A stretch of 64,000 bases of DNA from Lama glama (lineage: Eukaryota), in contig CM052816.1 of assembly GCA_028534125.1 (NCBI GenBank), positions 5,086,001 to 5,150,000 on the forward strand. Reading direction: 5' to 3'. A model generated the notes under the pieces. It had not been told where the DNA came from. It made no database searches and saw only the letters and a program-made list of their open reading frames with translations. The position numbers and the translations under genes were made by a program. Every line of letters starts with the position of its first letter. Positions within the stretch are counted from its first letter, which is position 1. Positions 7,447 to 51,500 of this stretch are shown piece after piece.

Positions 7447-7527
7447 GTAAAAATTGTGAATCACGATGTTGTACACCTGAAACTTACATAATATTGTAAA
7501 TCAATGACTCCATAATTTAAAAAAAAA
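7447..7527 (+). mobile_element. Very short L1 3' end insertion
   Basis: L1 tail plus poly(A), flanked by aaaagct(c/t)tgcttt direct repeats. Confidence 0.75.
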
Positions 7528-8226: not shown

Positions 8227-8269
8227 CTGGGGCCAGCTCAGTGAGGCAGAAGATCGCTGGGGTTGCCAT
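8227..8269 (-). CDS. Candidate alternative first coding mini-exon of LARP1 (MATPAIFCLTELAP+G, phase 1)
   Basis: ATG GCA ACC CCA GCG ATC TTC TGC CTC ACT GAG CTG GCC CCA G|GTAAAC; 43 nt = 14 codons + 1, the same phase as the main exon 1; non-repetitive context. Confidence 0.45.
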
Positions 8270-9816
8270 GGGTTAGCTGGTATTACATTTTTATTTTATG
8301 CCATCAGTCAGCTGCACTTCAAAGGGACACAGAAAAAAATGATGCCCAGAACATAAATTTTCAAATCTCAGACCCTACCCCTGACTTTCCTTTAAAAAGA
8401 AATGAAGGAAAAGATTACAGTCCTGGTTAGTCTTCTTAGTACACAAAGTTAGAGGTGTCACACAACCAATCGGCTGATTCCCCTCTAGGGTTGGTAGAAG
8501 CTTGTAGGGATGATACATTCTCAAGCACCAACCTACGGCATGTACACTAGCCACAGCCGACGTTTAGTTCAGTTAGACTGGCCTCTCCCCACAGCCCTGA
8601 GAGCACATGTACACTCTGCCAAAAGGTAATCTTTACAAAAGTTAAAATAAATTAAAACTTAATTTTAAACATTCTTCATAACACATTGTGAAGTAAAAAT
8701 AGCTAATTCTTTGAGTCATCAACCCATAATATTATCCATACTATGCCTTTCTTGTCTGTGGATAAGGAAGAGTCCATTTTTAGGGACATAGATCCCATAT
8801 ATTTCATGAAGTATGGATACAATACCAGAAAAGGAAAGTACTGCATTCACCAACCCCCTCATTTTATAGGTGGAGAAAATGAAAACCCAGAAAAAGTCCC
8901 AGAAATTCCCATAGTTTCAGTCTTCCAGACATAGTATAACAGTGAACACATACCAGGCACTGGGCTAAATACTTTACACATATTATCACAGCGAATGCTC
9001 ATTCAGCCCAATGAGGCAGATAAAACATAATTTAATTTCTATTATACAAATGGGGAGGCCAAGGCACAGAATGGTAAAGTATCTTGCCCAAGGAGACAGA
9101 GCTCTACCGCTACCACAGAACTGTGGTGGCAGTACAGCTACCATGCAGTTTTGACCCCAGAACCTCTGCTATATATCATTTGTTCTTTTAACTAAGACAT
9201 CTTGCCTCTCTCATACTTCAGAGTTGTGCCTAGAATAAGGAAACATTTTTAAGCATTTTCAAAATATTCCAGGGGAGGGAAATAAAAAACCAAAATGCAA
9301 TTCCAAGACTTAAAACTACTAAAACACAGAAGCTTAAACCAGAAGAGACCCCCCCACAAGAAAGGGGAGATATCACAAAACATCTTTTATTACTATTTAC
9401 TGCATGTGTCCCTTAAAGAACTAAAATACTGGCATCTGAGCCAAAAGGAGAGCTAAAAATAGGCATCTGGCAAGCTTTGGAAAGCTTTTAGCTTGCTTAT
9501 GAGGCACCAAAAACATATGCATCACAGAACACAAAATTTCCCAAGACCACACTGCCACTCCATTGGTGTCACATTTAAACTTGTCCAAGCTGCAAATAAA
9601 ATCAGGGCTGGAAAAGGGCCTTAGCGATCCATGCATTTCAAAAGAAAGGGCCACCATCTAACCTGACCACACAATTCTCTCGCAAAACCATCCAAGCCCT
9701 AACAACAGGCTTAAACAGGGAAGCTACTGGATCAATTCAGAGCTCTGTCAAAGACTTGTAAATGTTCAAAACCAGTGAGTAGACAAGACATTTTCTTGCC
9801 CTAAGATTCCAGAAAA

Positions 9817-9977
9817 GGTGGGAGGCTATAGCTCAAGCAGTAGAGCACATGCTTAGCATGAACAAGGTCCTGGGTTCAATCCCCAGCACCTCCTCTAAAA
9901 ATAAAGAAACCTAATTACCTCCTCCCCACAAAAAAGATAATTAACACAACTATAAATAAATAGAATAAAGAAAAAAA
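9817..9977 (+). mobile_element. Vic-1-type tRNA-derived SINE (camelid)
   Basis: tRNA-like head (TATAGCTCAAGCAGTAGAGC...GGTTCAATCCC), A-rich tail and a perfect 14-bp TSD AAGATTCCAGAAAA (9803-9816 / 9978-9991). Confidence 0.9.
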
Positions 9978-11542
9978 AAGATTCCAGAAAAACAAGGACA
10001 GAGTAAGTCTACCCGGTTTAGTCCTGCTTTGGGCACTTAAAGCAAGTTGGCTTATTCTACTCAGAAGTAAAGGCCAGATGCCAGCCAAGCTGTCTTCTTC
10101 CCACGATCAATAACCCCAGTGACGCACCCTATCAAGGGCCCCTGGATTTGCACAAAATGCCAGCTCAGGCACCCAATACTACCTGATGTCATGGCTGATT
10201 TAAAACCCACAAGGCAGGTTCACCATTAGCTAAGCAGCAGCAGCAGCTAGGGTGAGTAGCCCCATTTAAACTTCTGAGGAGTGTTCTCTCCTGGGGATGA
10301 TTATACCCCTTAGAGTTTAAAGAGGGGGGTAGGACCAAAGAGTGTCTTAAAGTTGCTTTCCCTCCCTCTGTGGGTGGATCAGGAGGGATTTGCAAGAAAA
10401 TGGAGGTTTCAGCACTGCCCTTTGCATAAGAGGGTTCTGGAAGGAAAAGGGGGGAAGGGGAGGAGGGCAAAAGGAAGAGAATATGGTTTGAGGTACTATT
10501 AGTAAACCCCAAATGTCCCCTCCTACAAATGAAGCAACCTTAAAAGAAATAAAAATTACAACACGCCATTTTCAGAATTGGCTCTTTCCCTAGGACTACG
10601 AGTGATTCTATTCTTTTGCATGTGAAAGCATTAAGCTCCCCTTTCAACTTTCCCCATTTTGATGGTTTAAGCCAGTCAGCTTCAATCAGCGACTACAGAA
10701 GGGGAGGAGTTTTGAAAATGCACTAGGGCTATAACCAAAGGCCATCATTCTAGCTCCAAGCGCGTTTATTAGTACCGGTCCACTACAATAGGGCCAAAGA
10801 ATCGAGCCCCACGGTATCTCTACATGCCTGCAAAGGGAGGAGCGCCGGCGCAATTCCCACCAAAGCCGACGATCTGTTCTCGGTAAAGGGAGGCCGAGCC
10901 AGGGGCTCCATCTTCTGCACCGCCGCTCTCTCCACAATGACACGGCTCTGCTGGGATTTCCTGCACGCCCACCTCCCCCAAGGGGCCAGGTCGAAATGGA
11001 CCCAAAAGCCGAACAGGGAGAAGGAGGGCGCGGGGCGCGTCGGTCGGCGGTCACATGTCGCTCCCCGCGAGGGGAGGCACCACGTTGTCCCGGCTGCGGA
11101 GGAATGCCGGGAAGGGGGGACGCGCACTCACACCGGCGCGCACACACACACTCCCGGCCGCGCCGCCCGCCCGCACCCGCCTTCCACCCCTAGGGCCGCG
11201 GCGGGCGCCGAACGCCGAGGCCGAGTGGCCACGAGCGCCCGCGGGCCGGCGGAGCTGCGCATGGCACCCAACTGTCACCCGCCCGCCGGGCCCGGCCACT
11301 CCCTCCCCCGCCGCCACACGCCCCTCGCGTCGCCGCATGCCCCCTTAATCGCCTCACATTTTCCGCCAACCCCTTCACTGGATCCCCCACACACTCGCCA
11401 TCCGGCTCCCTCTCAAGGCGGAAGGTCCCCAGGATCAGGGAGGGAAAGCACCGAATTCAATGACACGTTGGGTTTCCTCTTCTCTCCATTCTCCCCGTAA
11501 CCGACCCCTCAACCCGTCGCCAATGGTGATTCTACCGCTTAC

Positions 11543-11633
11543 CACCACCTACTCGGGAACAAAACTTGTTAAGTTTTAAAACCTGAATCTGTGCCGTCAG
11601 TATGAACTCATCGCCGGGCGCTTTGCTGCCCAT
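11543..11633 (-). CDS. Candidate alternative first coding exon of LARP1 (MGSKAPGDEFILTAQIQVLKLNKFCSRVGG+G, phase 1)
   Basis: Strong Kozak context GTCATGG, 30 open codons + 1 nt, donor GTG|GTAAGC; inside the CpG island. Confidence 0.4.
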
Positions 11634-12089
11634 GACATATGCTCATTAAACATTTACAACATGGGGACGATCACAACGCTACCAAAACGGGGAGCATGAG
11701 GCGGGATGGTAGGGGGCTTCCCGAAGAAGGTTCAAGCTAGAAACCGTCTCTTACACCAACACGCGGTAAGGGGAGAGGGCCCTTTTCACCGAAACCAGCG
11801 CCCACCCTCTCCCAGCGAGGTAGGCCCGGACCACGCCGTTGCCCACTAACCGCTGCGGCCCAGGCAGTAGCCGTGGCCTCCTGGCGACCAGGTCCTCCGG
11901 CAGGGACAGGTTCCCGAGTGCGTCGGGGGGCAGGGCACGGCGACCCGAATTAGGAGGCAAAAAAAAAAAAAAATCCCGAGTCACCACGACCAGCGGCGGA
12001 CCCCTGGGCTCTGGAGGCCGCTGGGGGAGGGGACGCCTATGTCCCCGGAAAAGGTCCCCGAACCCAGGATATCAAGCAGAGAGACCCAC

Positions 12090-12537
12090 CTGGAGGAGAC
12101 TGTCCGTTCACGGTGGCCAGGACGGGCGGGAGGGCGTTCTTAGTCCACGGGTTCACCTTGGGCGGAGGGGCCTCCACGAAGTCTCGGCGCCCGGCGCCCG
12201 CGGCTCCTCCGCCACCGCCCGGCTCGCCGCCGCCGCCGCCGCCCTCCTCTCCGTCGCTGACGGCCAGGCCCTCGGCGCCGGGCGGCTGCGGCGGCGGCCG
12301 AGGGCTCTCGCGCTCCAGCTGCCCGGTGCCCTCCTTGTGTGTCTTGGCGCAGGACAGCCGAGGTCTCCGGGCGCCGCCGTCCTGCTCCCCCCCTCCGACG
12401 TCGTTCGCCCCGGGCTCGCCCTTGCCCTCAGGCGGCGGCGGCGGCGGCGGCGGCTTCTTCCTCACCAGCCCCCCGTGCTCTTCGGCCTGCAAGAGCGGAG
12501 CGCCCCCGGGCAGCAGCGGCTCCACCTGAGTGGCCAT
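12090..12537 (-). CDS. LARP1: La-related protein 1, main first coding exon (long ~1096-aa-type isoform); 149 codons + 1 nt, phase 1
   Basis: Translates as MATQVEPLLPGGAPLLQAEEHGGLVRKKPPPPPPPPEGKGEPG...RRDFVEAPPPKVNPWTKNALPPVLATVNGQSPP, which I recognise as the LARP1 N-terminus. ATG at 12537; donor CCAG|GTGGGT at 12090/12089. Confidence 0.96.
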
Positions 12538-13399
12538 CTGCGCGCCCGCCCCCCCGGAGAAGCCGGGCGCGCCCGAGGCTGCCTCCCCCGCCTCGAACTT
12601 GGCTCTCAGAGCGCCCGCGACGCCTTCCTCCGGGGCGCTGGGCCCCAGTCCTTGAGGAGAAGGGTCGGGGTTCACGCTAGGCGCGGCCCCCCTCCCGGTT
12701 GGATGCAGCCGCCGTAGATCCAAGGCCCACTGGCGGGGCGGGGGGGGGAGGAAGGCCCCCCACTCTGCGGTCCAGGCCTCCTCGGCGTGCGTCCCCCCCC
12801 CGCCCGTTCCTCACGAGGCGCCCCCACCCCGAGCCTGGCAGGCTTCTCGTCCCGTCCCTCCCTCCCCCCAGCCCCCGGGGCGGCCCGGGCTTCCCGGCTC
12901 GGGGGCTGCAGCAATATGGACGGACGGGAGAGAGGCGCGGCGAGCCGAGCTGACCACGCGATCCGCGGCAGGCGGCGGGCGGGCGCGCGCCTCGCGACGC
13001 AGCGGGCGAGGGGAGGGGACGGCGCAGCGGGGGCGCGCCCGCCGGGGCCGGCCCTGGGCGACGGGCGGGCGAAGGCGGCGGGAGGGCGCGCGCACGGCTT
13101 CGCGGCCCCGCCCTTTACCCCGCCCCTCGCCGCCGATTCCCCGACGCACCTCGGAGCCTGGGGGTGAGGGGTACTCAGACCCGACGGGGGCGAGCACGTG
13201 CCTGATGCAATTCGGGAGGGGGGGCGGTGAGCGGGGCCGGAGAGGTAGGGTGGTAAAGAGGGGGAAGTGCCTTAAAGGGCCAGCGCGTGAAAGCGGACGC
13301 AGGTGGAGCACATGGGAACGGGCCACGCGGCCGGCCGGGCCTGCTCGCGCTCTTTAGTTTGGGTGCGCCAGATTACGCTGGGAAGGAGCCATTAATGTC

Positions 13400-13899
13400 N
13401 NNNNNNNNNNNNNNNNNNNNNNNNNNNNNNNNNNNNNNNNNNNNNNNNNNNNNNNNNNNNNNNNNNNNNNNNNNNNNNNNNNNNNNNNNNNNNNNNNNNN
13501 NNNNNNNNNNNNNNNNNNNNNNNNNNNNNNNNNNNNNNNNNNNNNNNNNNNNNNNNNNNNNNNNNNNNNNNNNNNNNNNNNNNNNNNNNNNNNNNNNNNN
13601 NNNNNNNNNNNNNNNNNNNNNNNNNNNNNNNNNNNNNNNNNNNNNNNNNNNNNNNNNNNNNNNNNNNNNNNNNNNNNNNNNNNNNNNNNNNNNNNNNNNN
13701 NNNNNNNNNNNNNNNNNNNNNNNNNNNNNNNNNNNNNNNNNNNNNNNNNNNNNNNNNNNNNNNNNNNNNNNNNNNNNNNNNNNNNNNNNNNNNNNNNNNN
13801 NNNNNNNNNNNNNNNNNNNNNNNNNNNNNNNNNNNNNNNNNNNNNNNNNNNNNNNNNNNNNNNNNNNNNNNNNNNNNNNNNNNNNNNNNNNNNNNNNNN
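13400..13899. other. Assembly gap (500 N)
   Basis: Run of N with a round placeholder length. Confidence 1.
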
Positions 13900-16257
13900 T
13901 ATCTTCATTTACAAATGAAAGCAACTGAATTTCAGAAAAAGAAAGTAAGGTGGGTGCCTGCAGTCCCAGGCAACAGCTGACTATCAAGTGGGCTTCTTCC
14001 AGGCAGTGTAACTCACCAGGCCTGTTCTTACCCACCACACCACACTGTGAGGCCTGCCTCTCTTCCCTCGGCTGTCATATCCACAAGTATTTATGGAGAA
14101 CTCATCAAATACATAGGACTGGGAAAGATACTAAAGCACTGAATCCTGTCTGCCCAAAAGATAAACTCTAATTGAGGGGACCAAGGAATTAAGTAATAGG
14201 TGATCTCCGGCCAAAAGAAAAGATAAATAAGATTAGCTTTAGGCAGAAAGCAACAAGGAACAGACTAACTTGTGCTGTGTCCTGGGCTTCAACACATCAC
14301 AGGCTTAAAACTCACAGACACACAGAGTGAGAAAGTCAAACTTCAAAAATAAAAATAATAAAGTGGGTCCAAATACCAATTTGTAATTAATTATGTGCGT
14401 GTTTGCTCCGGGTGCTGGAAACTTCCTAAAGGAGACGGAGGAGGCCAGATGAGGGACAAGAGACAGGAGACCTGGTTTACAGCCTGGTCCCATCTCTGGC
14501 TCGGCTGAATGACTTGGGCAGCCTCCTGAGCCTTCCTGGACTTTCATGTCTCCATTCTCAACACGGGAAGCATACCTGCCCATCAGGCTTATGGATGTGA
14601 AGAAAGATATAGTTTCCCTGAAACTATTCTTTTGGGGAAGCATAGGTAAACGGAGGGTGGGGTTCATGACGTTATCTATGCCTGGTGGGAAGGAAAATTT
14701 AACACGTTTGGATATTCAATTTTATTCCTCTTTGGGTTTGATTTTTCAAAGGACTCTGTGTTTCTGGAAGAACTTGGACTGTATCACTAACCTGATACCA
14801 GGGGCTCCTGGGCTTAAGGCCTCTTTATACGGATGTGGAGGAGTAGTGGGGTTAGCAAGGGAGGGGCCTCAGCCAAAGAAACTGTATGGGCTGGGGAGTG
14901 TGCTCCCAAACCCTAAAGACTCTTGGGCCTTCTGGCACATGCCAAGAAATTTATTTCAGTTCATGAGAGGAGACTCAGCCTAGATCTCCTCTTGTGAAGT
15001 AGAAGTGAATAGCAATTGTTTACTTAAGGGGGCTAAGGAGCACGGGAGGGTACTGGCCATTCCCTTAATACCTGGTTAACCCCCAGGGCAACCTTTTTTT
15101 GTAAGAATGATGATCCCCATTTTATGGATGAAGAAGTAGACTTAGAAGCCACCCAATCCACCTGGCAAGCTTGGTGAAAGAAGAGGATGGGTTTGCAGTG
15201 AACGAGGTCTGATAGAGATGAGTTAGAGACAGGCACCACCCGTGGCCTCTTTTCACTGCATTCTACCTATACAGCCCCTTCCCTCCGCCCCACGACCCTC
15301 CCTGCACATTCTCAAGTCATCCCCTGATGGGCTTCCCCACTAACTGTTCTCCCTGCCATGCAGCGTGCCCCCACCCTGCCTAACCCATTTCTCTGGGTCT
15401 TTGATGGACTTGGACAGGCCCTGCTTCTGCTCAAAAATCTCCGAACTCACATCCCTGCCTATACTGTTACTTCTAGCCCCACACCCTACACTACAGCGAC
15501 AGTAGACCACTCCCTGTTTCTTTCATTTGACAAGCATTTATTAGATATCTACCATGTGTCAGCTACTGCCCAGGCCCTGGACATGGAGAGGTGAGCAAGA
15601 CACACAGCTTCCATTCCTTCAGGAAGCTCCCCATCTAATGCCCTGTGGGCCTCGTGTTTTGCTGCCTCAGTCGGTTACTTCTCTCACTGTGACATAGCTG
15701 TTCATAGTGAGATCCTCTGTGAATCCCAGCTCGACCGTCTTGTGACTTTGGGCAAATATTTAACCTCTAAGCCTCAGTTTCCCCATCTGTAACTTGGAAA
15801 TGATGATACTACTTTTCTCATAGAGCTTCAAGTGAGCCTTAAATGAGAAAATGTGCGTAATTCCATAGCACAATGCCTGGCATGTAGTATGCGCTAAGTA
15901 AACATTACCTTTCATTACTTTCTTATTGCAGTAATGACATCCTATTTCCATTTGTCCAGAATTTTACCAGTCTTTCAAGGCTCAGCACAAAATGCCAACT
16001 TCTTCACAAAATTTTATTTAGTCTCCAGAACTGGAATAGATTTCTCCCTATTCTGAATTCCTAGTGGCAATTTCCCTAAAGCATACAATATTCTTTACTT
16101 TCTTTCTACCCTCATTTATGGTTATTTATGAATATGCCTTAGCCTCCATCTAGATTATAATATGCTTCTTGAAGGCAAGGATTGTACCCCATTCTTCTTA
16201 GTGTCCCTTGTAATAATCATCAGGGCTGCCTCTACACAGTGTGTTTTCTGGACAAAG

Positions 16258-16286
16258 GAATGAATGAATGAATGAATGAATGAATG
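16258..16286 (+). repeat. (GAAT)n microsatellite (L2 tail)
   Basis: gaatgaatgaatgaatgaatgaatgaatg. Confidence 0.9.
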
Positions 16287-16339
16287 CAGGATCACATCTG
16301 ATCACACCAGTGTTTTGGTAAATAGAACAATACTGTCAA

Positions 16340-16580
16340 ACTTGTGGTTTCCAAGGGGGCGGGGGGTGGGAATGGGATTTCAAAAAGTAGAATAGATAAA
16401 TAAGCTTATACTGTATAGCACAGGGAAATATACACAAGATCCGGGTAGCTCAAAGAGAAAAAAATGTGACAATGAATATATATATGTTCATGTATAACTG
16501 AAAAATTGTGCTCTACTCTGGAATTTGACACAACATTGTAAAATGATTATAACTCAATAAAAAATGTTGAAAAAAAAACC
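16340..16580 (+). mobile_element. Young LINE-1 3' end
   Basis: L1 3'UTR, poly(A) and TSD CAATACTGTCAA (16328-16339 / 16581-16592). Confidence 0.9.
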
Positions 16581-16969
16581 CAATACTGTCAAGGGCCAAG
16601 TGCTAAATTTTATATATAAAATACATAATGTATATTATATATTGAATGTACAATATTTATTATACATAATAAATGTATAAATTATATATACTTTTAAATG
16701 ATAAAATATAATACAAAATGAGCTAACTTTAGCAAACAGAAAAAAAAATTTAAGCCCAGAAACACAAAACCCACCTATAAGCTCACAAGCCAAAGGCAAA
16801 TCCCCTCCACATAGTCAGTGAAGTATCATCTATTGAGCACCTATGGTATGCCTTACCTGACAGCAGCCCACCTTCTATTTGTATCACACTGTATTTCCCA
16901 AAGGGCCTTCATGGAGACAGGACAAACGTGATTATCCCCAGTTGGCAACTGAAGAACAGAGCCCCATAG

Positions 16970-17190
16970 AAAAACAACAAGTTTATACTGTATAGCACAG
17001 GGAACTATATTCAATATCTTGTAGTAACTTATGGTGAAAGAGGATAAGAAAGCGAATATATGTATGCTCCTATATGACTGAAGTGTTGTGCTGTACATCA
17101 GAAATTGACACAACATTGTAAACTGGCTATACGTCAATAAATATATATAGAGAGAGAGAAAGATAAAAGAAAAAGAAAACAAAACAGAAC
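16970..17190 (+). mobile_element. Young LINE-1 3' end
   Basis: acaagtttatactgtatagcacagggaactatattcaatatc..., A-rich tail and a degenerate TSD (aacagagccccataga / aacagaaccccacaga). Confidence 0.85.
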
Positions 17191-17829
17191 AGAACCCCAC
17201 AGAAATTCCGTGACTTGCTCCAGGATGCTGGGGCAGGAGAATCAAGATCAGAAGCCAGGTCTCTCCCCTACCATTCCAAACCCCTGCACATCACAGGTAA
17301 CATATACAGCACACACTGAGAATGCAAAACTCCCACAGTTGAACGAAGGTAACCATGTTTAAACATTCCAGGGTCAAGAAACATCCAAGTTCACGGAGAC
17401 AGGTGGAAATCAGCAGCCAAAATGAAGGCAGAAAGCAATTTTCCCGGCAGCATGACCGTAAGTAGTCACAGGTACTGAGCTCCAGGACAGAATGGCCCTG
17501 ACTTAGGGACTGGAGTAGAAACAAGAAAGGGCAAGACGTGTTGTCTGCCCCAGGGAACAAAACTCCGTATACCAACACACTGTTCTCTTCACAGGCCACT
17601 TGACTGTCCTTTACCTATGGCACAGAAAAATAGGGGAACGGTTTTGGGGTCAAAGAGTTGGGTTCAGGTTCAGGTTTGCCCACTTCCTAGCTGTGTGATA
17701 TCAAGCAAATTACTTCACTTCTCTGACCTTCAGTGTTTCCATCTAAAAAAATGATGAAAAGGGAAATATTTGCCTGATAAAATTCTGAGAATGTCAAATG
17801 AACCATTATTTGTGTAAGGGTTTTATACT

Positions 17830-18030
17830 CCCAGCTCTACCACCCACCAGCTCTGTAACCTTGGGCAAGTTCCCTCATCTCGCTCTGCCTCAGTTTTCTC
17901 ATCTACAAAATGGATATAACAGCACCTACCTCTTAAGACTATTTTGAGAACTGAGTGAGTCAATACTTGTAAAGTGCTTAGAACAGTGCCTGACAAATGC
18001 TAAGTGCTGAATAAATGTCTGCTATAATTA
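17830..18030 (+). mobile_element. MIR SINE (one example of many in the window)
   Basis: MIR core: ctgtaaccttgggcaagtt...cctcagttttctcatctacaaaatgg...aaagtgcttagaacagtgcctgac. Similar cores at ~7800-8010, ~15720-15930, ~24200-24350, ~32630-32790 and ~53900-54060. Confidence 0.8.
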
Positions 18031-23975: not shown

Positions 23976-24124
23976 GGGGGAGGGTATAGCTCAGCAGTAG
24001 AGCGTGTGCTTAGCATCCACAAGGTCCTGGATTCAATCTCCAGTACTTCCATTAAAGTAAATAAATTAATAAATAAAAGTTGAATTACTGCCCCCCCCAA
24101 AAAATAAATAAATAATTTAAAAAT
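23976..24124 (+). mobile_element. Vic-1-type SINE
   Basis: GGGGGAGGGTATAGCTCAGCAGTAGAGCGTGTGCTTAGC...GGATTCAATCTCC, AT-rich tail and a diverged TSD (aataactaattttaag / aatagttaattttaag). Confidence 0.88.
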
Positions 24125-31336: not shown

Positions 31337-31500
31337 GGGGAGGGTATAGCTCAGTGGTAGGGTACACGCCCCTTAGCCTGCATGAGGTCCTGGGTTTAAT
31401 CCGCAGTATATCCATAAAAAACAAAAATTAAAAACAAAGAAATAAATCTAATTACCTCTCCCACCCTCACCCACCAAGAAACCCCATAAAAAACAAACAA
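31337..31500 (+). mobile_element. Vic-1-type SINE
   Basis: GGGGAGGGTATAGCTCAGTGGTAG...GAGGTCCTGGGTTTAATCC plus the same A-rich tail containing CTAATTACCTC. Confidence 0.85.
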
Positions 31501-35967: not shown

Positions 35968-36152
35968 CAGGGTTGCTGAAGGGGGTCAGGACAGGGAAAT
36001 GGCTTCTCCCTGGCACCTGTTGGCTCCTTCCTGGCGGGCAGCTGCCAAGGCCACGCTGCCTTTCCTCCCTGGGCGTCGGCCAGGGCAGCTAGGCATGAGA
36101 GCGCTGGGTAAGGTGGAGGCGGCCTCCCTGAAGAAAGCGCCCCCCAGGACAT
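35968..36152 (-). pseudogene. LARP1: Homologue of the alternative coding exon 1 of the human short (~1019-aa) LARP1 isoform, frame-disrupted here
   Basis: Segments in three frames (MSWGALSSGRPPPPYPAL / PSCPGRRPGRKGSVALAAA / RKEPTGAREKP / FPVLTPFSNP) match the recalled human MLWRVLLSKRPPFPHPEL...PSCPGRLPGRKNSVALAAAPRKEPTGDREKPLPFPVLAPFSNPE. The donor CCTG|GTGAGT at 35968/35967 is intact. Confidence 0.85.
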
Positions 36153-40176: not shown

Positions 40177-40264
40177 GGGGTGGGTATAGCTCAGTGGTAG
40201 AGCACATGCTTAGCATGCATGAGGTCCTGGGTTCAATCCCCAGTACCACCATTGAAAATAAAAA
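40177..40264 (+). mobile_element. Vic-1-type SINE (short)
   Basis: GGGGTGGGTATAGCTCAGTGGTAGAGCACATGCTTAGCATGCATGAGGTCCTGGGTTCAATCCCCAGTACC. Confidence 0.88.
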
Positions 40265-42889
40265 GGTTAATCTCACATTTCTTAGAGCTGGTATGGCCAA
40301 GGCTCTGAACCAAGTTGAAGGCTTGTCCCAAGAGTTAGCTGCTTCCTATTTCAGGCCCCTCCCCACATGTAAGAGAATTTTCCCCACCCTCCCACTCTGC
40401 TGACTATCTCTGCCCTCTAAGAGCCTTGCCAATAGCACAGATCTGTACTCTGTGGGGATTCTGCTCCACTACTCTGAGCCTCAGCTCCCTATAAATTGAC
40501 AATAATAGCAGAACCCTGAGGATTAAATGAACTAATGCCAAGTATATAGTAAGCCCTCAATATATGAGAAGTATGATGCTGACAATGCAAGACACCTGTC
40601 CCAGGGTGTCAGGCTCAGGAGCTACAAAAAAGAATCAACTGCATTTCTCACCCTCTAAGTGCTTCAGTCCAATGGCCACTCCTTCCTTCCCATTTCTACC
40701 CATGCTGTCACATTTCAGGCCTGGATCAGGGTCCAGGAGGCCAAGTTATTCTGACTGCTTTGCAGGGAGGCTACCAAGCCAAACCTCCTACACCTGAAAC
40801 CACCCATATGCTCACCTCTGCCGGTGAGAACCCCATTCCCAGCTCTGCAGAATTGCTGACTATCTCCAGCTGCTGGAGCCAAAGCATCATATGCTCTGAA
40901 TAATAAAGCCATCCAGAAAGTTCCCCATGGCAAATTGGGCACCACGCTCCAGCCTGCACCCTCGAGCCAGGCAGCCAGAAATACCAGCCTGTGCTCAAAG
41001 CTGAGCTCCCATCCCCAACAGGATGGAGCCATGGAGTCCAGGGAGTTACAATCTCCATTCCCTTCTCTTTCCTGATGCCTTCTTCTCTCAATGAGACCAT
41101 ATGTATTTTTCACCCAAGACTCTATTTTTACAGAGCATAATAAAACATTCTCAGTAGATTCAGTGACCATTTGCCCCGATTTTTTCAAACTTAGAAAGCA
41201 AAAGCCATTGAGGGTTAGAGAAAGACATGGTAAGACCAATATGAAGGAAAAGGAACCAGTTAAATATTTTTGGTTCACCTGTGGAAGCAGGCGTGGGTGG
41301 CATTGTTCTTTCAAGTGGATGTCCAAGCTGTAAACTTTGCAGGATGAGGGACACAGGATGCGGGTGCAAGGGACTGCTGGTCAGATGGTGTATTTGCTGT
41401 GCAGGTGAGCTCCTTAGGGGCAGGGGCTGAGCCCTATTCCCCACCGCACCCAGCACTCAGCACCAAACACAGTGCCTAGCCCTGAGCAGTCAGTCCAAAA
41501 ACATCTGTCAAAGGAACAAAGTTGCTCAGTTAGACAGTCAGCCCAGGGGTTTAAGATGCTTCTATTGCACATTCTCATAACAGCCTGAACACTTCCTTCT
41601 CATAACTTATCATACTTGTAATTAAATAACTGCATGTACAATTATTGAACATGTGCATCCTTGACAAGACTGTCGGCTCCCTGGAGGCAGGACTGCTTCC
41701 AGTGTTGTTCATCATATGTACCCTCAGTGCTTAGAAAGGGATCTGGCATACAGTTGGCACTCAATAAATATTTGTTGAAGGAATAAATGAGCCTTGGTTC
41801 TGCCATCAGTGCGCTGTCACCCTGTTACCCTGGGAAAATGTTTTCCTCTCTAGTCCTCAGGTTTTCCACTTGCATATTAGCGACAGGGCACAATGAATGA
41901 TTTTCAAGCAACAAAACCCAATCTCTTAGTTAAAAAAAAAGTTAAAAATAGAGTTGTTGCCGCGGGCATGCTCTGAGACAGACCCATCTGCATCTCTGGA
42001 CCTCCACCTATGCAACAGCCCTCCAAGTGTTCCATGGAACCTTAGGGAGTTCCAGGGGGCAAAGTATGAAAACTATTTAATTCCATGATCTCTAAGGTCC
42101 CTAAGCAAACCTGTTTGTCTGCCTGAGATAATGTAAACATTTCAATTCCTCCTGTCTATCCTTTATTTAGGTCAGTATTTCTCGTATTGGCCAGCAGTCC
42201 CCTGTCTCAGGGACACCACTGATGTTTTTATGTAAAATACAGTTTCCGTGGCTCCACCCTAGTCCTACTAAATCTGAATCTCCAAGGAAGAGGCCAGGAA
42301 TCAGCATTTTGAACAAGCACCTTCCTGTCAGTTGATGGTTGTCCACTGAAGTGTTTGGGTTATCCCCAACTAAGTTATTTCCACAGACCCTCATGAGGTA
42401 TTTTATCCTGGAGCTTTCATTACAACTGTGCTTTTTTGAATGACCAGAGTGAGGCAAAAAAAAAAAAAAAAAAAAGCAGGAATAGTCAGAAGAGCCCGGA
42501 TAAATGAGTCAAGGTTTGTCAAGTGGGAAGAGATCACAGGGAGCTCTTCAGGGGCCCTTGACAGACAGATCATCCTGGTGGCTCCGTGCTCTGCAATCTC
42601 ATAGTTTGTATCTGGAAGAAGTCATCTGTGTATTTCTCTATTCTTCTGGAGTGGCATTGGCAACCTCAGGAATTATTTATTGAATTATCAGGTTTCTTAT
42701 TAGTATATTAATGGATCCCTGGGAGTTAAAGAGTAGCATGCCTGTAAGGCTGTCAAGGAAATTCACTGTAGTCTTTGGAAATATGGTAGGTTTTTGTCAA
42801 CTTCATGGAAAACAGCCATTCATTCATTTGTTCATTTTTTTCCACTCAACTAGCTTGACAGATTCATTGGTACATAAATTACTTCCTCT

Positions 42890-43400
42890 TTTTTTTTTCA
42901 GCTTTATTGAGATATAATTCTCACACCATACAATTCACCCATTTAAAATGTAAATTCAATTATTTTGATACATTAAGGGTGTACAACCCTCACACAATCA
43001 ATTTTAGAATATTTTATCAACTCAAAAGAATTCTTGTACCCTTTAGCTATCACCTCCCAATCCTCCATGCCCTTAGCCCTAACCAACCACTAATTTACTT
43101 TCTATGTCTATGGATTTGCTTATTCTGGACATTTCATTTAAATGGAATCATACAATTGGTGGTCTTTTGAGACCAACCTCTTTCACTTAGTGTAATGTTT
43201 TGAGGTTCATCTACTTTGTAGACTGTATCAGTACTTCATTCCTTTTATGGCTGAATAATATTCCATTGTATGGATATACCACATTGTGTTTATCAATTCA
43301 CCAAGTTGATAGACACCTGGGTTGTTTTCATTCCTTGGCTATTCTGAATAATGCTGCTATTTATATTTGCATACAAGTTTTTGTGTGGACATATTTTCTT
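42890..43400 (-). mobile_element. Older L1 (L1MB-like) 3' fragment
   Basis: ttttcagctttattgagatataattc...aatggaatcatacaa...ggctgaataatattccattgtatggatatacc, a typical antisense L1M tail. Confidence 0.85.
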
Positions 43401-46400
43401 TCCTCTGCTTTTGAAAGGCTCCTAGTCCAGCAGATGTAGATGCTAAAACAGGTACCTATATAATTACCTGTGCTGGTCAGATGCTGCAAGAGAGGGATGA
43501 GGCAACATGTGTGATGGTTAGAACCACATGTTTCTGCCATTACTAACTAAACGATCTGGGAGGCAAGCTTCTTCATCTTTCTGTGTCAGTTTTCTCATGT
43601 GTAAAATGGTATCAATATTTTCCTGACCTTATAGGACTGCTGTGAGGATTCCATGAGCAAATAAATGCATGTTAGGGGCTTAGCCCCAAGCCGGGCACAT
43701 AGTAAGCGCCTGATAAATGTTTGTCATTATCATTTGCACTCAGGAGATCACTGACAGTAAGTTTACTGATGGACCATGCACTGTAGCAGTAAAGTTTCAT
43801 TAAACAAATGTTTCTTGAGCATTTATTATGAACTTGGCACTGTGAGAGAAATACAGTTGATCCACACCTGGATCCTCCTGCCAGGAGTCTGTAACCTGTA
43901 ATCTGAATGGCAAGACTCACTGGCATACATCACCTCCATATACTGTGATGTGTTCTTTACTAAAGGCCCCCCAAACTGCTGTGGGAGCCCGGGAGAAGGA
44001 ACTTTTTTTTTTAAAGATATCTTTTTATTATGAAAATGTTCAAAAATACAGGAAAGTAGAAAGAATTATAAACTGAATACTTACATATGATCACAAAAAT
44101 TCAACAACTGTCAACATTTTACCATATTCACTTTATCTTACTATATGCCAAATTTGTGGCTGAACCATTTTAAAGTTAACTACAGATATTCTAACACTTC
44201 AGCCCTAAACACTTCAACACGCATTTCCAAAAAATAAAGATTCTCCTCCATAACCACAATACTCTTACCATACCTCACAAAACTAATAACTGCCTTATAT
44301 CATCTAATCCCCAGTTCACAGTCAGATTTCCACCACTGTCTAAAAACACAGTCTTTACAGCTTTTTTTAAAAAAAAGAACCAAGATATAATCAGGAATCA
44401 CATCTTACACTTAAATGTTATATTCTAGGATCTCTTTAAATATAGAACCTCCTCCCCCACTATGTTTGCTTTGGTTTTATTTTCACATTGTCGACTTTTA
44501 AGAGATCACATCAGTGGTCTTATAAAGGATTCCGCATTCTGGACTTGTCTGATTGCTTCTCTGTGGGTTATGTAATGTGTTCCGCTATTCCCTGAAATTC
44601 TGGTAAACTGAAGCCAGCTCTAAACACCTGATGAGGTTCAGGCTCAGTATTTTTGGCAGGACCCAAAATAGGTGGAGCTGGGTAGTCTACTGCATCCTAC
44701 TGAGAGGTACCACCGCTGGTGACCCAAAGCACGACCCCTGGGTTAAAATGGTGACACACAGAGAGAGGAGGAAGGAAGTGGGAAGAAGGGAAACATCTTC
44801 ACAGGCAATGGCATCTAAGCAGGGCTTGAAAGGGTGTGTAGGAGCCTACTGGGTGGAGAAAAGGGAAGGGGAAGGACCTTCCAGGTACAGAGGCACAGTG
44901 TTGGGAAAGAGAGCGCTGAGCTTCAGGAAGTAGGAGGTGGTAGCCAAACGTGGTTACTTGTTATAACAATAACAGCAGGCACTTAACGCCTATTAAGAGT
45001 TTACTATGTTCCAGGAACTATGCTAAGTGATTCATTTAATTTCTCACACAGTCCTATGGAACAGATGTTGCTGCTCCCCTTTTAAGGGTGTGGAAATCAC
45101 GATTTAGTGATAGGTGGTAACTTGCCAAAGGTCGTAAAGCCAGGAATAGGCAGACTCCGGATTTGAATCCAGGGGCTTGACTCCTGAGCCTCTGCTTTTA
45201 AAAGCACAAAGCTCTATGTTACGGTGACAGGACAAAAGAGTTGGAGAGGCAGGTTGGGGGTAGGTGGAAGAAGGCCTTCTCTGCCATTCTGAGGAGTCTA
45301 GGTGTTATTCCCAGGGCAGTGGGGAGCCAGCGAAGGTTTCTTCATAGGGGCGGGCATGGCTGTGCCTGAGAATGGGCACGGCTGCCCGGTGAAGGCAGAG
45401 TGGAGAGCTGCGGGGGTGAGCTGTTAGACGCATGGCTGGGTGTCCCTCCAGGGAAGTTGGGCCCTTTGCACTGCCGGGACAGAGAGCAGGTTGGGGAGGG
45501 AGTTGGGGGGAGGGCTAGGTTCCTCCTCCAACTAGACTAGCCAAGAGTCCTGCCCTGCACAGTGCACAGACACTGGATGTTCCACAAGAGCAGGGTGGGT
45601 GCTGCACCCACAGACACCCTCACCGTGCAAACAGCTCCAGTTTCTACCAAGTCAACCCTAAGGCCCAGTATCCTGTTGGCCAGATGGCGCTGGGATGTGA
45701 GCTGCAAAGACCAGGTGAAAGGATCAGCTTTAACCTGAGACCCAGAGAGGGAAAGTGACTGGCCCGAGATCACACAGTCAAATCGTGGCAGAGGCAGGAC
45801 TAGAACTCAGGTCATGCCTCTTGATTCCAAGCCCGCTATTCTTTCAGGATGGACTTTATTTCAGAATCAAAGAGGAATCAGAATCAAAGAGGAATCAAGA
45901 CACAATCACTGGCCGTGGGATGCCAACTGCTCTGGGAAATCCTTCATTTTTTTTTTTCCACTAATAATTTCCCACATTGAGAATCCTCTTGGAGGGCTAC
46001 AGGCACCCTTCCTGGCTGGCTGTTGCCACCACACAGCGCCTGAGTCAGCACGTCTCGCACAACTGGTCAGCTCCAAGTAGCGGGGGCAGTACAAAGCCTG
46101 GGCCCGGCTGCTCACCCTTCAGCCTTCAGGCAGAGAGGGTGCATGGGTAGAATGCAGGAACGGCTCTGGGATGCCTGCGTTCAAACCTCTGCCCTGGTAC
46201 TCACTAGCTGTGCAGCCTTGAGCCTGTCACTCGCCCTCTCTGTGCTTCTGTTTCTTCATTTTTAGATCGATGAAAATAGCAGTGCTTCATACAGTTGGAT
46301 GTGAGGATTAAATACCATAAACAGTGTCAAAGGGCTTAGTAAGGCTTACCTCAAGATAAAGGCTGGTATTACCATTCCCTTGGGGATCAGAAGGCTTGGG

Positions 46401-47635
46401 TGCCTGCCATTAACTTATCTATTTATTGGACAAACCTTTCAGATGCTGCATAAAATCTGCTTCTTCCACGAAGTACACCTGGATTAACTGTGCTCAGTTT
46501 AAAGCCTCCTTGATTCCCAGAATTTAAAGCATAGCTGGCATTATCTCAACTAACTGTAATGGGGGTGGAGGAAGGCAGATTGTGGTTGCCTCCCCACCGC
46601 CCCCCAGCACAAAGCCTGGCTCAGAAGGCCCGGGGTTGTGCTCCAGGCCCGAGCTAGCTGCTGGCTAATTAGTTTGGGGTAAATCACTTCATCTCTGTGA
46701 TAGTTTCTTCGATAAAATAAGGGTGATAATACCTGTTTTGCAAGCTGATAAAAGTCAGATTCCTGACTATACTTTGAAAAGGGAAGGAAACAGGCAAAAT
46801 GTTTTTTCCAAAGCATATTTAATAAATCAGGAAAGTGATGCTAATATACTGGGTTTATTTTTCTTTTCTAAATTTTATCTTATTTAAAAAGTTCAACAAG
46901 AAGATGCATTAATATGTTCTCATGGTAAAAGATTCATAGCATAGTATTAATCAAAATAGGGCAAGCTCTGCATATGAAATGTGACCCCAACTTTGTTAAA
47001 AAAAACCCATAAATACACTGAAAAAAAACAAACATAAGGAAATCCACCAACATGTTAACAGTCGGTAGGATTACAGATTATTATCTTCATTTTATTATCC
47101 TATATTTTACTTTTTTTTTCTAATAAGGATGTATTATTTTTATAAACAGAAGAAAATTACAACTAAAGAAAAATAAACAAAACCACAAGCTTTCTAAAGG
47201 GGCCATCACTTTCTGGTTCCAAACAATTGCTGCCTGGTGGGATCTCCCAATTTTCCAAGAGAATCCAGAAATCTGGATCTTTTTGTGAAATCCCTTGATT
47301 TTTAAAGATCGGCAGCTAATTCACAAGACGCATTTGACCAGTCTGCTGATCACAATTTGTGACCTGCTACAGGAACACACTGAACTCTCTTCTTCCTCTG
47401 CACCTTTGTTTTTGCTGTTGCACTGCCAAGAACACCCTACCACTCATGCAGGTTTCACGAACTCTACCTGTTCTATCAGGCCTGGCCGAAACACACCTCT
47501 TCTGTGAGCATCCCCAGATGACCTCAGCTAGAAGTGACACTCCCTCCCGGGGGATGGACCATTTAGTCCCCATCTCATATCATGGTTATTTTGATGAGTC
47601 CTATCTCTCCTGGTAGGCATTGAGCTCCTAAAATA

Positions 47636-47856
47636 CAGCTGACCCCTGAGCCATGCAGGAGTTAGGGGCACCGATCCTCCATTCCTATAGCTGAAAATAT
47701 GCCTGTAACTGTACAGTCGCCCTCTCTACCTGCAGTTCTGCATCTGCGGATGTTACCAACTGTGGACCATATAGTACTGTAATAGTATTTACTGAAAAAA
47801 ATTCACATATAAGTAGAGCCACGCAGCTCAAACCTGTGTTGTCCAAGAATCAACTG
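47636..47856 (+). mobile_element. Second MER8/Tigger-type element
   Basis: Clearly homologous to 4870-5098 (cagctgacccc...ggagttaggggcac...ttgtccaagaatcaactg). Confidence 0.78.
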
Positions 47857-49049
47857 TCCTCAATAAACATCCTGGAGCACCTGCTTTGTTGAAGGCACCA
47901 GGCTAGGCACTGAGAATACAGCTGAGGGCAAGATGGATAGCCTTTGCCTTGATGGAATATAGTCTAGTACAGGGGACTAGATTTTTAACAAATCATTCCC
48001 AAGACACCTAATTCCAATCTGTGATGAGTTTTACGGAGTTAAGAAAGTTTCTAAAAGGAACTTAATCCAATCAGGAGGATTAAGCTAGTCACCAGGCAGC
48101 TTGGGGAAGCATCAGCACTTGGGCTGCCACCTAAGGCTGCACAGTTTGTATTCTGCACAAAGGTAACAGGAGGAGAGGACAGGCCAGAGCAGAGATGCAG
48201 TCCCACCCAAGCTGGGCCAGTTTCTAATTTGCAAAAAGGCACTGTGCAGACCAGCAGGGGCAGTGTTTAGGTGTGGTAGTTCCTCCTACCATCTGACCCC
48301 CTTCAAAAAAAAAAGCTGCTCTAAATAAACACAGACTCTTAAAAACAGTGATATCTGTCTGTCTGTCTGTCTGTCTCTCTATATATATCCTCAAGGGATG
48401 TCTCCCATACTCCCTTTCTACCAGAATAAATCCCCTAAAACCTTACTTTAGCAATTTTGAGAATCAAAGATGGCATCTCTGAGGAAGTGACAGAGGAGCC
48501 AAGATTGAAGGATAAGAAAGGGCCAGGCAGCCAAAGTATGAGGAACGGCAAGTACAAGGCCTCTGTGGAGAGAAGGTACCACAGATGAGGGACCTCATAA
48601 GCGGCCAGTGGGGCTGCAGGGCACACAGTGATGGGAGAGTGGCAAGGGTGGGCTGGATAGCATGTATGGCCTGGAAGGCCAGATTAACGGGTTCCATCCT
48701 CACCCTGAAATGTCTCTTATTTCCTTCTCCCTGATCATGTTGTTTATGGGTGTCACTGCCCATGGGCACCCCCACAGAGCGAACAAAATAACATAAACCA
48801 CCTTTCCATGGCGCCTACCCTGAGCTACACACTGTACTGGGGCCACATGCCCAGTTCACTCTTCCTTCCCCATCTTCCTAAGGTAGGAAGGATTCTTTGA
48901 TTCTAAATGAGCAGATGAGAAAACTGAGACACAGAGAGGTTACCTGGCTAATAAGACCTGGGTTGGGATCCCAGGTCTGTGATTGTAAGCCTTTCTTCTT
49001 GGCCGCCTTGTAACAAAGACTCTTGCAAAAAAACAGGCACAAGGAGAGC

Positions 49050-49378
49050 CTGGCTACTCAAAGTGGCATCTGGGGGGCTTGTGGCATTGGCATCACCTAG
49101 AAGCTTGCCAGAAGTGTAGGCACTCCAGTTCCAGCCCAGTCCTACTCAATCACAACCTGCATTTTAAGATAAACAACCAGGTCCTATTGTACAGCACAAT
49201 ATCCTGTAATACGCCATAATGGAAAAGAATGTGAAAAAGATTACGAATGTATGTGTAACTGAATCAATTTACTGTATACCAGAAACTAACACAATACTGT
49301 AAATCAACTATATTCCAATCTTTTTAAATTTGTATTTTACAAGAATCACGTACACATTACAGGCTGAGAAGCACTAGA
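49050..49378 (+). mobile_element. MER5-like hAT DNA transposon split by an L1 3' fragment (~49166-49325)
   Basis: MER5A-like 5' part (gctactcaaagtg...gcatcacctagaagcttg...ctgcatttt) and 3' part (...gagaagcact) on either side of an L1 tail. Confidence 0.6.
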
Positions 49379-49849
49379 CAAAACAGTAAGTCTAGACAAC
49401 AATCCAAGCAAAGCAGCATATTGCCTTCACAGCCCTCAAACTACAGTCTACCGTCTCAAAGGCCAAGTCTCTAGTGACTTGAAAACAACTTATTATGACC
49501 AAATTTGCCAGAATTGCCAACTGTTCCATCCATCCACTTGCCCCAGTTCTGTCTTCTATTGCAGCTCCAAAGGAAAGTCTGTGAGAGGCTACCACCACCT
49601 CCAGAGAGAGGCTGCTGTACACTCTGATTCTGGTCAGTTTCTTAGTATGGATCTGCCCTCGTACAGGAAGAAATCTAAAGTTGTTTGACCCTTCTCCTGG
49701 TTAATCACTGCTCCAAATCATCTTCCACTTGGGGTCCACTCTGATCCCCAGATCATTTTCTGGGACCCACTTTTCACCAGACAATTCCTTCTCTTAGCCT
49801 ACATACCAAAGAAGACAGAATGGTTTGGCAGAAAAGATTACTAGGTGAT

Positions 49850-50330
49850 AATACTCAGCCATAAAAAAGAATGAAATAATGCCACTTGCAACATCATGGA
49901 TGGACCTGGAGACTGTCACACTATGTGAAGTAAGAAAGAGAAAGTGATAAGATATCACTTATATGTGGAACCTCAAAAAAAAAAAAAAGAGAGAGACAGA
50001 CAGACAAAAGAACTTATTTACAAACAGAAACAGACTCACAGATATAGAAAGCAAACTTGGGTTACCAGGGGGTGAAAGGTGATGGGGTGGAGGGATAAAC
50101 TGGGAGTTCCAGATTTGCAGATAATAACTACTATATATAAAACAGATAAACAGCAAGGTCCTACTGTATAACACAGGGAACGATATATTCAATACCTTGT
50201 AATAGCCTATAATGAAAAAGGATATGAAAAAAACAAATATGGAACTGAATCACTATGCTGTATACCAGAAATTAACATACTGTAAACCGATTATACTTCA
50301 ATTAAAAAAAAAACTTTTTAATTAAAAAAA
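49850..50330 (+). mobile_element. Young LINE-1 3' end
   Basis: aatactcagccataaaaaagaatgaaataatgcca..., L1 3'UTR and poly(A). Confidence 0.88.
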
Positions 50331-50849
50331 CTTAGGTGAGAAAAATCCGCATTTTCCTGCATTAAGGCCACATGTTATACGGCTGGGAAACTCCCATCTC
50401 CACTTCCCCCTTTCCATCTGAGAAATGGGTAGGATGAACTAGATTAGGAATCACTAAATCAGGGGTTTGGCAGGTAACACAAAGGACGGCCTAGGTGAAG
50501 CAGGAAGGAGTAATGGGGACAGTGGCAAATGAGAGGATGAATGCCTTGACTAAAAAAGGCAGCCCCACTCAGCATTAGGCTATTGTTGTCACGGTCCAGC
50601 GTTGGCATATGCTCTAATTATTAGAGATTGAGAATCAGATGTCCCCCCCTGTGAAATGTCCTATGGTGTTTAAACACCGGAATCTGGTTAAAACTCAAAT
50701 AAACACCACCTTGTGGGCCGAATAAAGATCAGGTGCAGGCCAGATCTACCCGTGGGCCGCCAGTTTGCGATACCTAGCCTGAATGCCACCTAATTTTACG
50801 TGCAGGTTTATAATTCCATCCTATGCGCAGCTCTTCTAGAATGCTGCAA

Positions 50850-51500
50850 AGCGGCCTCGGTTAGGGCGACGAAATCCGCGCCTTCCGGGGCCCGTCGCCC
50901 CTCCCTACCGCGACGCCGCCCCCGCGGTGCCCCTTCCCAGGCCTCTCAGGGAGCCGGCCGTGCGCGGGGACGCAGCCCTGCTCGTGGTGGCGGTGCTTGA
51001 CGGGTCGCACGGCGTCGGTCTCTTTACACCCTCCCTACCTGGTCGCCTGCTCTCCGGGCAACGCCGCAGCGATGACTCAACATCCCGGAGCCCAGGCGTG
51101 GAGTCGGGGGCGAGGAGCGGGGGCGGGGCGGGGGAGGGAAATGGGCGGGGCGGGGCGGGGCCAACGGAGGGGGGAGGGGAGCGAAGAGGAAGGAGAACAG
51201 AGGCGAAAGGGAGGGAGGCGGAGGAGTGGGAGAGGAGGAAGGGGTGGGGGAGGGGAGGGCTCCCGGGGAGGCCGAAGCCCCAGCCCCGCCCCCTCCCGCT
51301 GCCCGCCGACTTAGGGCTGATCCTGGCAAACAGGCCGAAGAACAGCGGAGAGGGCAGGGAGAGGGTGAGGCACCCAAGGGGAGTTCGTGAGCTACCCTGC
51401 ATTCATCCCCCATCCCGAAGTGCCCTTGTTCACACGCCACACCCACGGACCCACCCTCGCCGTGTTTGGATTAGTGCTGGGAGATGCACCTTTAGACACG
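50850..51500. promoter_or_regulatory. Second CpG island; probable distal LARP1 promoter with a short first exon ending at 51039
   Basis: CpG-rich, with tandem GGGGCGGGG Sp/KLF boxes (51121-51160), AP-1 TGACTCA (51073-51079) and a minus-strand donor CCAG|GTAGGG at 51039/51038. Confidence 0.65.

What the first reader, a model, noticed from the sequence alone, without database searches (positions are those of the whole stretch)
8227..51500. Array of alternative LARP1 first exons sharing one splice phase (swappable N-termini)
Seen: three ATG-to-GT units on the minus strand (12537-12090, 11633-11543, 8269-8227) all have length 3n+1. The donor at 35968 is also phase 1 relative to its FPVLTPFSNP frame, and a distal CpG island has a donor at 51039. 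Known: human LARP1 has two isoforms that differ only in exon 1 and join a common exon 2. Inference: several promoters could put N-termini of 149, 30 or 14 aa on the same La-module/DM15 body. The shorter ones would drop the Pro/Gly-rich region and the FVEAPPPKVNPW motif. Each phase match has a 1-in-3 chance of being random, so this is suggestive only.
Basis: partly seen in the sequence, partly recalled or inferred. Interest (0 to 1): 0.7.

Follow-up and report, generated by a model that had tools for sequence, protein, structure and literature searches.

The report
LARP1 alternative promoters, mostly non-coding
This camel-family LARP1 gene has one solid protein-coding first exon and probably several extra promoters, as already known in humans, but the proposed set of swappable protein starts is not supported: one is out of frame here and two are no more than chance would give.

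Summary
The coordinates are right; the interpretation mostly is not. 12537-12090 is the known long-isoform exon 1 of LARP1. 36152-35968 is the orthologue of the human short-isoform (1019-aa) exon 1, but it differs by three indels (net -20 nt). Its ATG meets the donor in phase 2, and the phase-1 frame has no ATG. At 51039 the nearest ATG is phase 0. The units 11633-11543 and 8269-8227 are at background: 14 of 82 donor-like sites on the sense strand and 14 of 76 on the antisense strand have such a phase-1 unit. None of 67 full-length LARP1 proteins fetched has these N-termini. Best reading: one dominant coding first exon plus secondary, non-coding or uORF-bearing first exons that would start the protein at the downstream MKEQEK methionine, like the human 891-aa isoform. 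Multiple LARP1 promoters are already published. One small new point: the 1019-aa N-terminus looks primate-specific as a coding frame. No RNA reads were examined and exon 2 lies outside the window, so no junction is tested; 11633-11543 is not excluded. The scan had no earlier LARP1 note.

The parts
12090..12537 (-). Coding part of LARP1 long-isoform exon 1 (149 codons + 1 nt, phase-1 donor CAG|GTGGGT)
   Evidence: 145 of 151 aligned positions identical to Camelus ferus P0052; homologues down to turtle and frog end at the same VNGQ motif and continue into the exon-2 peptide
11750..13399 (.). Main CpG island, promoter and 5' UTR of the long isoform; cut at 13400 by an N gap
   Evidence: 4 GC boxes and no ATG in the 150 nt upstream of 12537
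10750..11420 (-).
   Evidence: the human panel holding both start sites spans 2449 nt
11543..11633 (-). Candidate unit: ATG in strong context, 30 codons + 1 nt, donor GTG|GTAAGC; unproven
   Evidence: donor rank 44 on the sense strand of 1-52000; five other ATGs within 150 nt upstream (11697, 11662, 11653, 11646, 11638); no GC box in the 400 nt upstream; N-terminus in no fetched protein
8227..8269 (-). Candidate unit of 14 codons + 1 nt, donor CAG|GTAAAC; most likely chance
   Evidence: donor rank 43; upstream GC 0.40, CpG o/e 0.25, no GC box; N-terminus in no fetched protein
35968..36152 (-). Orthologue of human short-isoform (NM_015315-type) exon 1, from the orthologous ATG to the conserved donor CTG|GTGAGT; 185 nt, phase 2, three indels against the primate frame
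   Evidence: human coding length 205 nt (c.206 notation; P0063); 14 nt before the donor match the published junction primer (compared by eye)
50501..51500 (-). Distal CpG island with 4 GC boxes and donor CAG|GTAGGG after 51039; probable non-coding first exon (inferred); ATG 51083 is phase 0, ATG 51402 is phase 1 but lies upstream of the GC boxes

Best explanation
The locus has one dominant, conserved coding first exon (12537-12090) on a CpG-island promoter. Secondary promoters probably exist at the distal CpG island (about 51.1 kb), at the short-isoform-type exon (36.2 kb) and in the second CpG peak (about 11.2 kb). Their first exons would splice to the same exon 2 but bring no in-frame ATG. 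The ribosome would pass or finish a short upstream frame and start at the first in-frame Met of the shared body (MKEQEK; residue 211 in C. ferus P0052, 206 in human). That gives a form about 210 residues shorter that keeps the La motif and DM15 region and loses the FVEAPPPKVNPW motif. For the 36152 exon, the last two bases (TG) plus the A that must begin exon 2 make a stop exactly at the junction, so it would encode a 61-codon uORF, with possible decay of the mRNA. 8269-8227, and probably 11633-11543, are chance ATG-GT pairs. Shown: frames, phases, homology, background rates. Inferred: that the secondary promoters fire in this species, the splice to exon 2, and the downstream start.
For: Exon 1 homology and junction. 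Frame-aware alignment of the 36 kb exon: -16, +1 and -5 nt against human P0063 and snub-nosed monkey P0053. Unnamed ORF P0123 starts at the same ATG, shares the window's register at the +1 and -5 sites and stops before the donor. No phase-1 enrichment. Of 67 full-length LARP1 proteins fetched, 44 start with the long exon, 10 at MKEQEK (including dromedary P0072 and human P0062), 3 with the short-isoform exon (all apes or Old World monkeys), 10 are partial or other; 0 carry a candidate N-terminus. No Met lies between the exon-2 start and MKEQEK in P0052 or P0041. In human, the long isoform dominates, no short-isoform peptide was found, and an unknown N-terminally truncated 130-kDa band exists (PMC7928056). 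An 891-aa isoform with non-coding exons 1-3 starts at MKEQEK (PMC11418108).
Against: No reads, CAGE or junctions were examined, and exon 2 is outside the window. 11633 has the best Kozak context of the candidates and lies in CpG-rich DNA inside the interval where human has a second first exon. The far ATG 51402 is open in phase 1 for 121 codons. A CTG at 36088 could start the phase-1 frame of the 36 kb exon. The protein sample is partial (15 of 231 and 15 of 72 members listed for the two big clusters), so rare annotated N-termini could be missed. P0123 and P0125 have no species label, and P0125 runs in the phase-1 register up to residue 57 before diverging. The -16 nt deletion rests on this one assembly. 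PMC3631769 reported a band for the 1019-aa form in breast cell lines.
Confidence: 0.7

Rival explanations
1. 11633-11543 is a real alternative first exon that adds a 30-residue N-terminus in camelids (or more widely), replacing the Pro/Gly region; the other candidates are noise or non-coding.
For: Strong Kozak context (G at -3 and +4), fair donor (8.07 bits), CpG o/e 0.79 upstream. The neighbouring intron DNA down to about 11660 is recognisably conserved in read-through ORFs of other species. Human has a second first exon within 2.4 kb of the long-isoform start.
Against: Two such phase-1 units among 10 donor-like sites in 1-12089 is what the background rate (9 of 45) predicts. Five upstream ATGs within 65 nt and no GC box. 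The human exon in this interval is annotated as non-coding. No fetched protein has this N-terminus.
Confidence: 0.12
2. One reading: an array of three to five in-phase coding first exons giving swappable N-termini.
For: All three lengths are 3n+1; human does have two coding first exons in phase 1; 51402 is open in phase 1.
Against: The 35968 exon is out of frame from its ATG; the nearest ATG at 51039 is phase 0; phase 1 is not enriched; 8269 has no promoter-like context; the units are not homologous to each other; 0 of 67 proteins carry the new N-termini.
Confidence: 0.04
3. Only the long-isoform promoter works in this species. The 36 kb exon is a decaying or enhancer-like conserved element, and the 51 kb island serves another or an antisense transcript.
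For: The 36 kb region is CpG-poor (o/e 0.30), as expected of methylated DNA. The human short-isoform promoter is methylated, with no reads in 371 ENCODE sets. MKEQEK-start gene models can also arise when GC-rich exon 1 is missing from an assembly.
Against: The 35968 donor is intact and ranks 7th on the sense strand of 52 kb, and 51039 ranks 20th and points towards LARP1 from a GC-box cluster. Curated human isoforms with non-coding first exons exist.
Confidence: 0.14

Closest known systems
Human LARP1 long isoform, NM_033551.3 / 1096 aa (PMC7928056)
   Same: Same first coding exon, same phase-1 junction after VNGQSPP, CpG-island promoter; 124 of 149 positions identical to human P0041.
   Different: Only small length changes in the poly-Pro and poly-Gly runs (149 against 145 codons).
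Human LARP1 short isoform, NM_015315 / 1019 aa (PMC7928056)
   Same: Orthologous ATG, exon sequence and donor position, upstream of the long-isoform promoter, in CpG-poor DNA.
   Different: 185 nt (phase 2) against 205 nt (phase 1); three indels; no in-frame ATG, so no 68-residue N-terminus here.
Human LARP1 891-aa isoform, NM_001367719.1 / ENST00000524248.5 (PMC11418108)
   Same: Alternative start site close to the long-isoform exon 1, non-coding first exons, protein start at MKEQEK; the window has a second CpG peak with donor-like sites in the matching interval.
   Different: The exact camelid counterpart is not identified, and no junction was seen.
Variable-first-exon arrays such as clustered protocadherins and UGT1A (recalled, not from a call)
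   Same: Several first exons upstream of one constant body.
   Different: Those exons are duplicated homologues, each coding and in frame. Here the units are unrelated in sequence, and only one is shown to be coding.

Membership tests
LARP1 long-isoform exon 1 | MATQVE start, FVEAPPPKVNPW motif, phase-1 donor after VNGQSPP | tested here: met
LARP1 long-isoform exon 1 | Joined to a La-motif and DM15 body | tested here: inconclusive
   Exon 2 onward is outside the window; homologue P0052 has La and LARP1_HEAT domains
LARP1 short-isoform (1019-aa) exon 1 | Orthologous sequence, ATG and donor position | tested here: met
   14-nt match to the published junction primer
LARP1 short-isoform (1019-aa) exon 1 | ATG-led open frame meeting exon 2 in phase 1 | tested here: not met
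   185 nt, phase 2; phase-1 frame has no ATG
LARP1 non-coding first exons (891-aa type) | First exon without an in-frame ATG; first in-frame Met of the shared body is MKEQEK | tested here: inconclusive
   No in-frame ATG at 35968; nearest ATG out of frame at 51039 but a far one in frame; no Met before MKEQEK in P0052
LARP1 non-coding first exons (891-aa type) | Capped start and splice junction to exon 2 | not tested
   No reads examined; exon 2 not in the window
Variable-first-exon array (protocadherin/UGT1A type) | Variable exons are homologous duplicates | tested here: not met
   blastn of the four candidate regions against the window finds only self matches
Variable-first-exon array (protocadherin/UGT1A type) | Every variable exon is coding and in frame with the constant exon, above chance | tested here: not met
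Variable-first-exon array (protocadherin/UGT1A type) | Each exon has its own promoter | tested here: inconclusive
   CpG and GC-box context fits 12537 and 51039, is weak for 36152 and 11633, and is absent for 8269; sequence only
Variable-first-exon array (protocadherin/UGT1A type) | Codon-level conservation of each exon across species | tested here: inconclusive
   Met for 12537; not met for 36152 (P0123, P0125 and the window each read differently from primates); no orthologous DNA obtained for 11633, 8269 or 51039

The most novel reading that the evidence does not exclude
LARP1's secondary first exons are a nursery for lineage-specific N-termini. The 1019-aa human N-terminus arose in primates when small indels put an older uORF-bearing exon in frame (about 0.55 on its own), and camelids independently recruited 11633-11543 as a 30-residue N-terminus that removes the vertebrate-conserved FVEAPPPKVNPW motif. 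The probability given is for both parts together.
Probability: 0.08. Interest if true: 0.5.

Novelty: already known. Interest (0 to 1): 0.2.

Why it matters
Modest. Alternative LARP1 promoters are published, so the architecture is not new. The useful by-product is that the first exon of the 1019-aa isoform, long used as the reference for LARP1 biochemistry and described as conserved in placental mammals, is conserved as DNA but apparently not as a reading frame outside primates. That supports treating the 1096-aa form as the ancestral protein. It also points to the MKEQEK start as the likely common product of secondary promoters and a candidate for the unexplained 130-kDa band. I found no statement of the frame loss in nine paper searches; the supplement of PMC7928056 could not be read and may show it.

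Tried and rejected
No whole genome is held for this window, so exon 2 could not be reached. Public RNA runs holding 7000-13400 exist (18 of 24 rows hold part of it, 5 on record as RNA), but no reads were examined, so they are no evidence. A metagenome search with exon 1 gave 591 pattern matches, none confirmed. A 19-nt pattern from the 35968 donor gave 3 loci, none similar to the window by blastn: chance matches, dropped. A search for short proteins spanning exons 2-3 gave 33 hits of 56 candidates, none a mammalian alternative N-terminus joined to exon 2. Exact look-up of six window ORFs found 0 of 6, including the positive control, so it is uninformative. Pfam found nothing in 4 of 4 window peptides. 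The odd N-termini of P0026, P0027, P0028 and P0089 do not match the window. The 121-codon frame from 51402 was set aside because it is 68% C+T and 7.7% A, so stops are rare, and it starts upstream of the GC boxes; it is not excluded. A TATA-like run 31 nt before 8269 would put the cap on top of the ATG, so it does not help that unit. PMC5308895, PMC11235174 and bioRxiv 10.64898/2026.02.24.707805 held nothing on LARP1 first exons in the passages seen. The scan's own notes held nothing on LARP1.
Full report
Verdict. The window holds the 5' end of a camelid-like LARP1 gene on the minus strand. The coordinates of the finding are right, but the 'array of swappable N-termini' is not supported. One exon is the known coding exon 1, one is a known human exon that is out of frame here, one is probably non-coding, and two are at chance level.

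Observation. The units 12537-12090, 11633-11543 and 8269-8227 are 448, 91 and 43 nt, all 3n+1, each followed by GT. CpG-rich windows cover 10751-13400 and 50501-51500. No later LARP1 exon lies in the window (tblastn of P0052 and P0063). In human, exon 2 is about 34 kb further on (c.206-34499 notation, PMC10532311, passages).

The long-isoform exon. The 149-residue peptide found 25 homologues among 8000 scored candidates, among them annotated LARP1 from mammals, a marsupial, turtles and a bird. It is identical to Camelus ferus P0052 at 145 of 151 aligned positions, the highest of 12 compared, hence 'camelid-like'. The full-length homologues continue from VNGQ into the exon-2 peptide.

Chance test. 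I scored GT sites with an approximate, recalled donor matrix and asked how many have an ATG-led open frame of at least 10 codons. In 1-52000 at 7 bits or more, the counts for phase 0/1/2 are 13/14/17 of 82 sense sites and 22/14/13 of 76 antisense sites. At 8 bits or more they are 10/9/13 of 45 and 12/6/8 of 36. About one strong-looking donor in five has such a unit, so two in ten is the expectation. The donors at 8227 and 11543 rank 43rd and 44th on the sense strand; 35968, 12090 and 51039 rank 7th, 12th and 20th.

The 36 kb exon. It is the orthologue of human short-isoform exon 1. Human P0063 residues 1-68 match in three frames from an ATG at 36152 to the donor. The 14 bases before the donor equal the exon-1 part of the published junction primer (compared by eye). 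A frame-aware alignment gives indels of -16, +1 and -5 nt against both P0063 and P0053, net -20, so 185 nt and phase 2 against 205 nt and phase 1 in human. The phase-1 frame that ends in FPVLTPFSNP begins after a stop 40 codons upstream and has no ATG. Exon 2 must begin with A, because the split codon is Glu in the mammalian homologues. The ATG 36152 frame would therefore stop exactly at the junction after 61 codons (inference). A second ATG at 36096 stops before the donor.

Is that frame loss general? A search of 1.84 billion representatives with the primate N-terminus gave 5 hits. P0122 and P0124 carry the primate frame, and P0126 is a repetitive match that I ignored. P0123 starts at the same ATG, lacks the -16 deletion, shares the window's register at the +1 and -5 sites, and stops before the donor. 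P0125 shifts at another place and diverges after residue 57, so its phase at the donor cannot be read. Both are unnamed, so 'non-primate' is inferred from their divergence. Among 67 full-length LARP1 proteins fetched, the 3 with this N-terminus are human, siamang and snub-nosed monkey. This sample is partial: 15 of 231 and 15 of 72 members were listed for the two large clusters. The simplest reading is an older exon with a uORF that became in-frame in primates. I put this at about 0.55.

The 51 kb island. It has four GC boxes in the 400 nt upstream of ATG 51083 and a fair donor. That ATG is phase 0 (15 codons). Pfam finds nothing in it. A non-coding first exon is the likelier reading; no orthologous DNA was obtained.

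The intron-1 candidates. 8269 sits in DNA of GC 0.40 and CpG o/e 0.25 with no GC box. 11633 is better placed: CpG o/e 0.79, strong Kozak context, and recognisable conservation of the flanking DNA down to about 11660 in read-through ORFs of other species. But five other ATGs precede it within 65 nt. The human figure showing both start sites spans chr5:154,755,076-154,757,524 (PMC11418108 supplement text) and begins 301 nt before the long-isoform start given in PMC7928056. The human second first exon therefore lies within about 2.1 kb downstream of that start. This interval admits 11633-11543 and the denser CpG peak at 11100-11300 (32 CpG in 200 nt), with donor-like sites after 11134, 11132 and 10973, but not 8269. 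That human exon is non-coding. None of the fetched proteins contains any of eight test hexapeptides from the 11633, 8269, 51083 and 51402 frames.

Mechanism. Shown: the frames, phases and homologies above. Inferred: secondary promoters yield first exons with no in-frame ATG, so translation would start at MKEQEK, the first Met after the exon-2 start in P0052 (residue 211) and P0041 (residue 206). Ten of the 67 proteins start there, including curated human P0062 and dromedary P0072, though some may be incomplete gene models. Such a protein keeps the La motif and DM15 region (residues 381-437 and 850-998 of P0052) and loses the N-terminal motif.

What is known. PMC7928056 (whole main text read; figure legends as titles only; supplement unreadable) reports nine curated isoforms of 824-1096 aa, a dominant long isoform, a methylated short-isoform promoter, no short-isoform peptide, an unknown truncated 130-kDa band, and short exon 1 conserved only in placentals. 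It cites a study predicting over 10 promoters, which I did not see. PMC11418108 (passages and supplement passages) describes the 891-aa isoform with non-coding exons 1-3. PMC8034618 (passages) names the 1019, 1096 and 891-aa forms. PMC12645190 (passages) repeats the dominance of the 1096-aa form. PMC3631769 (passages) reported a 1019-aa band in three breast lines, which conflicts with PMC7928056. The comparison with protocadherin and UGT1A arrays is recalled.

Limits. No RNA reads, CAGE data or orthologous DNA were examined, so the use of every secondary donor is open. The donor matrix is approximate. The -16 nt deletion rests on one assembly, although P0123 shows that the exon would still be out of frame without it.

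Scores. Novelty: already known. Interest 0.2. Most novel reading not excluded: lineage-specific birth of N-termini, including a camelid 30-residue one, probability 0.08, interest 0.5 if true.

Noticed in passing
window 40179-40251, 23980-24051, 9820-9905, 31337-31427 (+): Four copies, 81-85% alike, of a tRNA-Ala-like element (Rfam and ARAGORN call one or two as tRNA). Most likely a tRNA-derived SINE; the camelid Vic-1 family fits (name recalled).
   Followed up: partly
window 13400-13899 and 56519-57018: Two 500-N assembly gaps; the first cuts the upstream edge of the main LARP1 CpG island.
   Followed up: no
window 8345-8227 (-): A pyrimidine tract and two AG sites (exon starts 8316 and 8311) precede the 8227 donor. 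As an internal exon of 90 or 85 nt it would bring an early stop in the LARP1 frame, that is, a possible poison exon rather than a first exon.
   Followed up: partly
P0124 (unnamed): Primate-type short-isoform exon 1 peptide followed by a sequence that is neither exon 2 nor the genomic read-through and has no clear match in the window; possibly a splice to another exon.
   Followed up: partly
P0089 / P0130: LARP1 exon 3-4 peptide with unrelated ends and an intron-free junction; looks like a frameshifted retrocopy or transcript fragment from another mammal.
   Followed up: no
window 10937-11500 (+): A 187-codon antisense ORF across the second CpG peak; probably a by-product of high GC.
   Followed up: no
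window 12450-12220 (-): Poly-Pro and poly-Gly codon runs in exon 1 differ in length from Camelus ferus P0052 and from other mammals.
   Followed up: no
window 24401, 16857, 22278, 20951, 2233, 46350 (-): Six donor-like sites score higher than any known LARP1 first-exon donor in the window; none was examined further.
   Followed up: no
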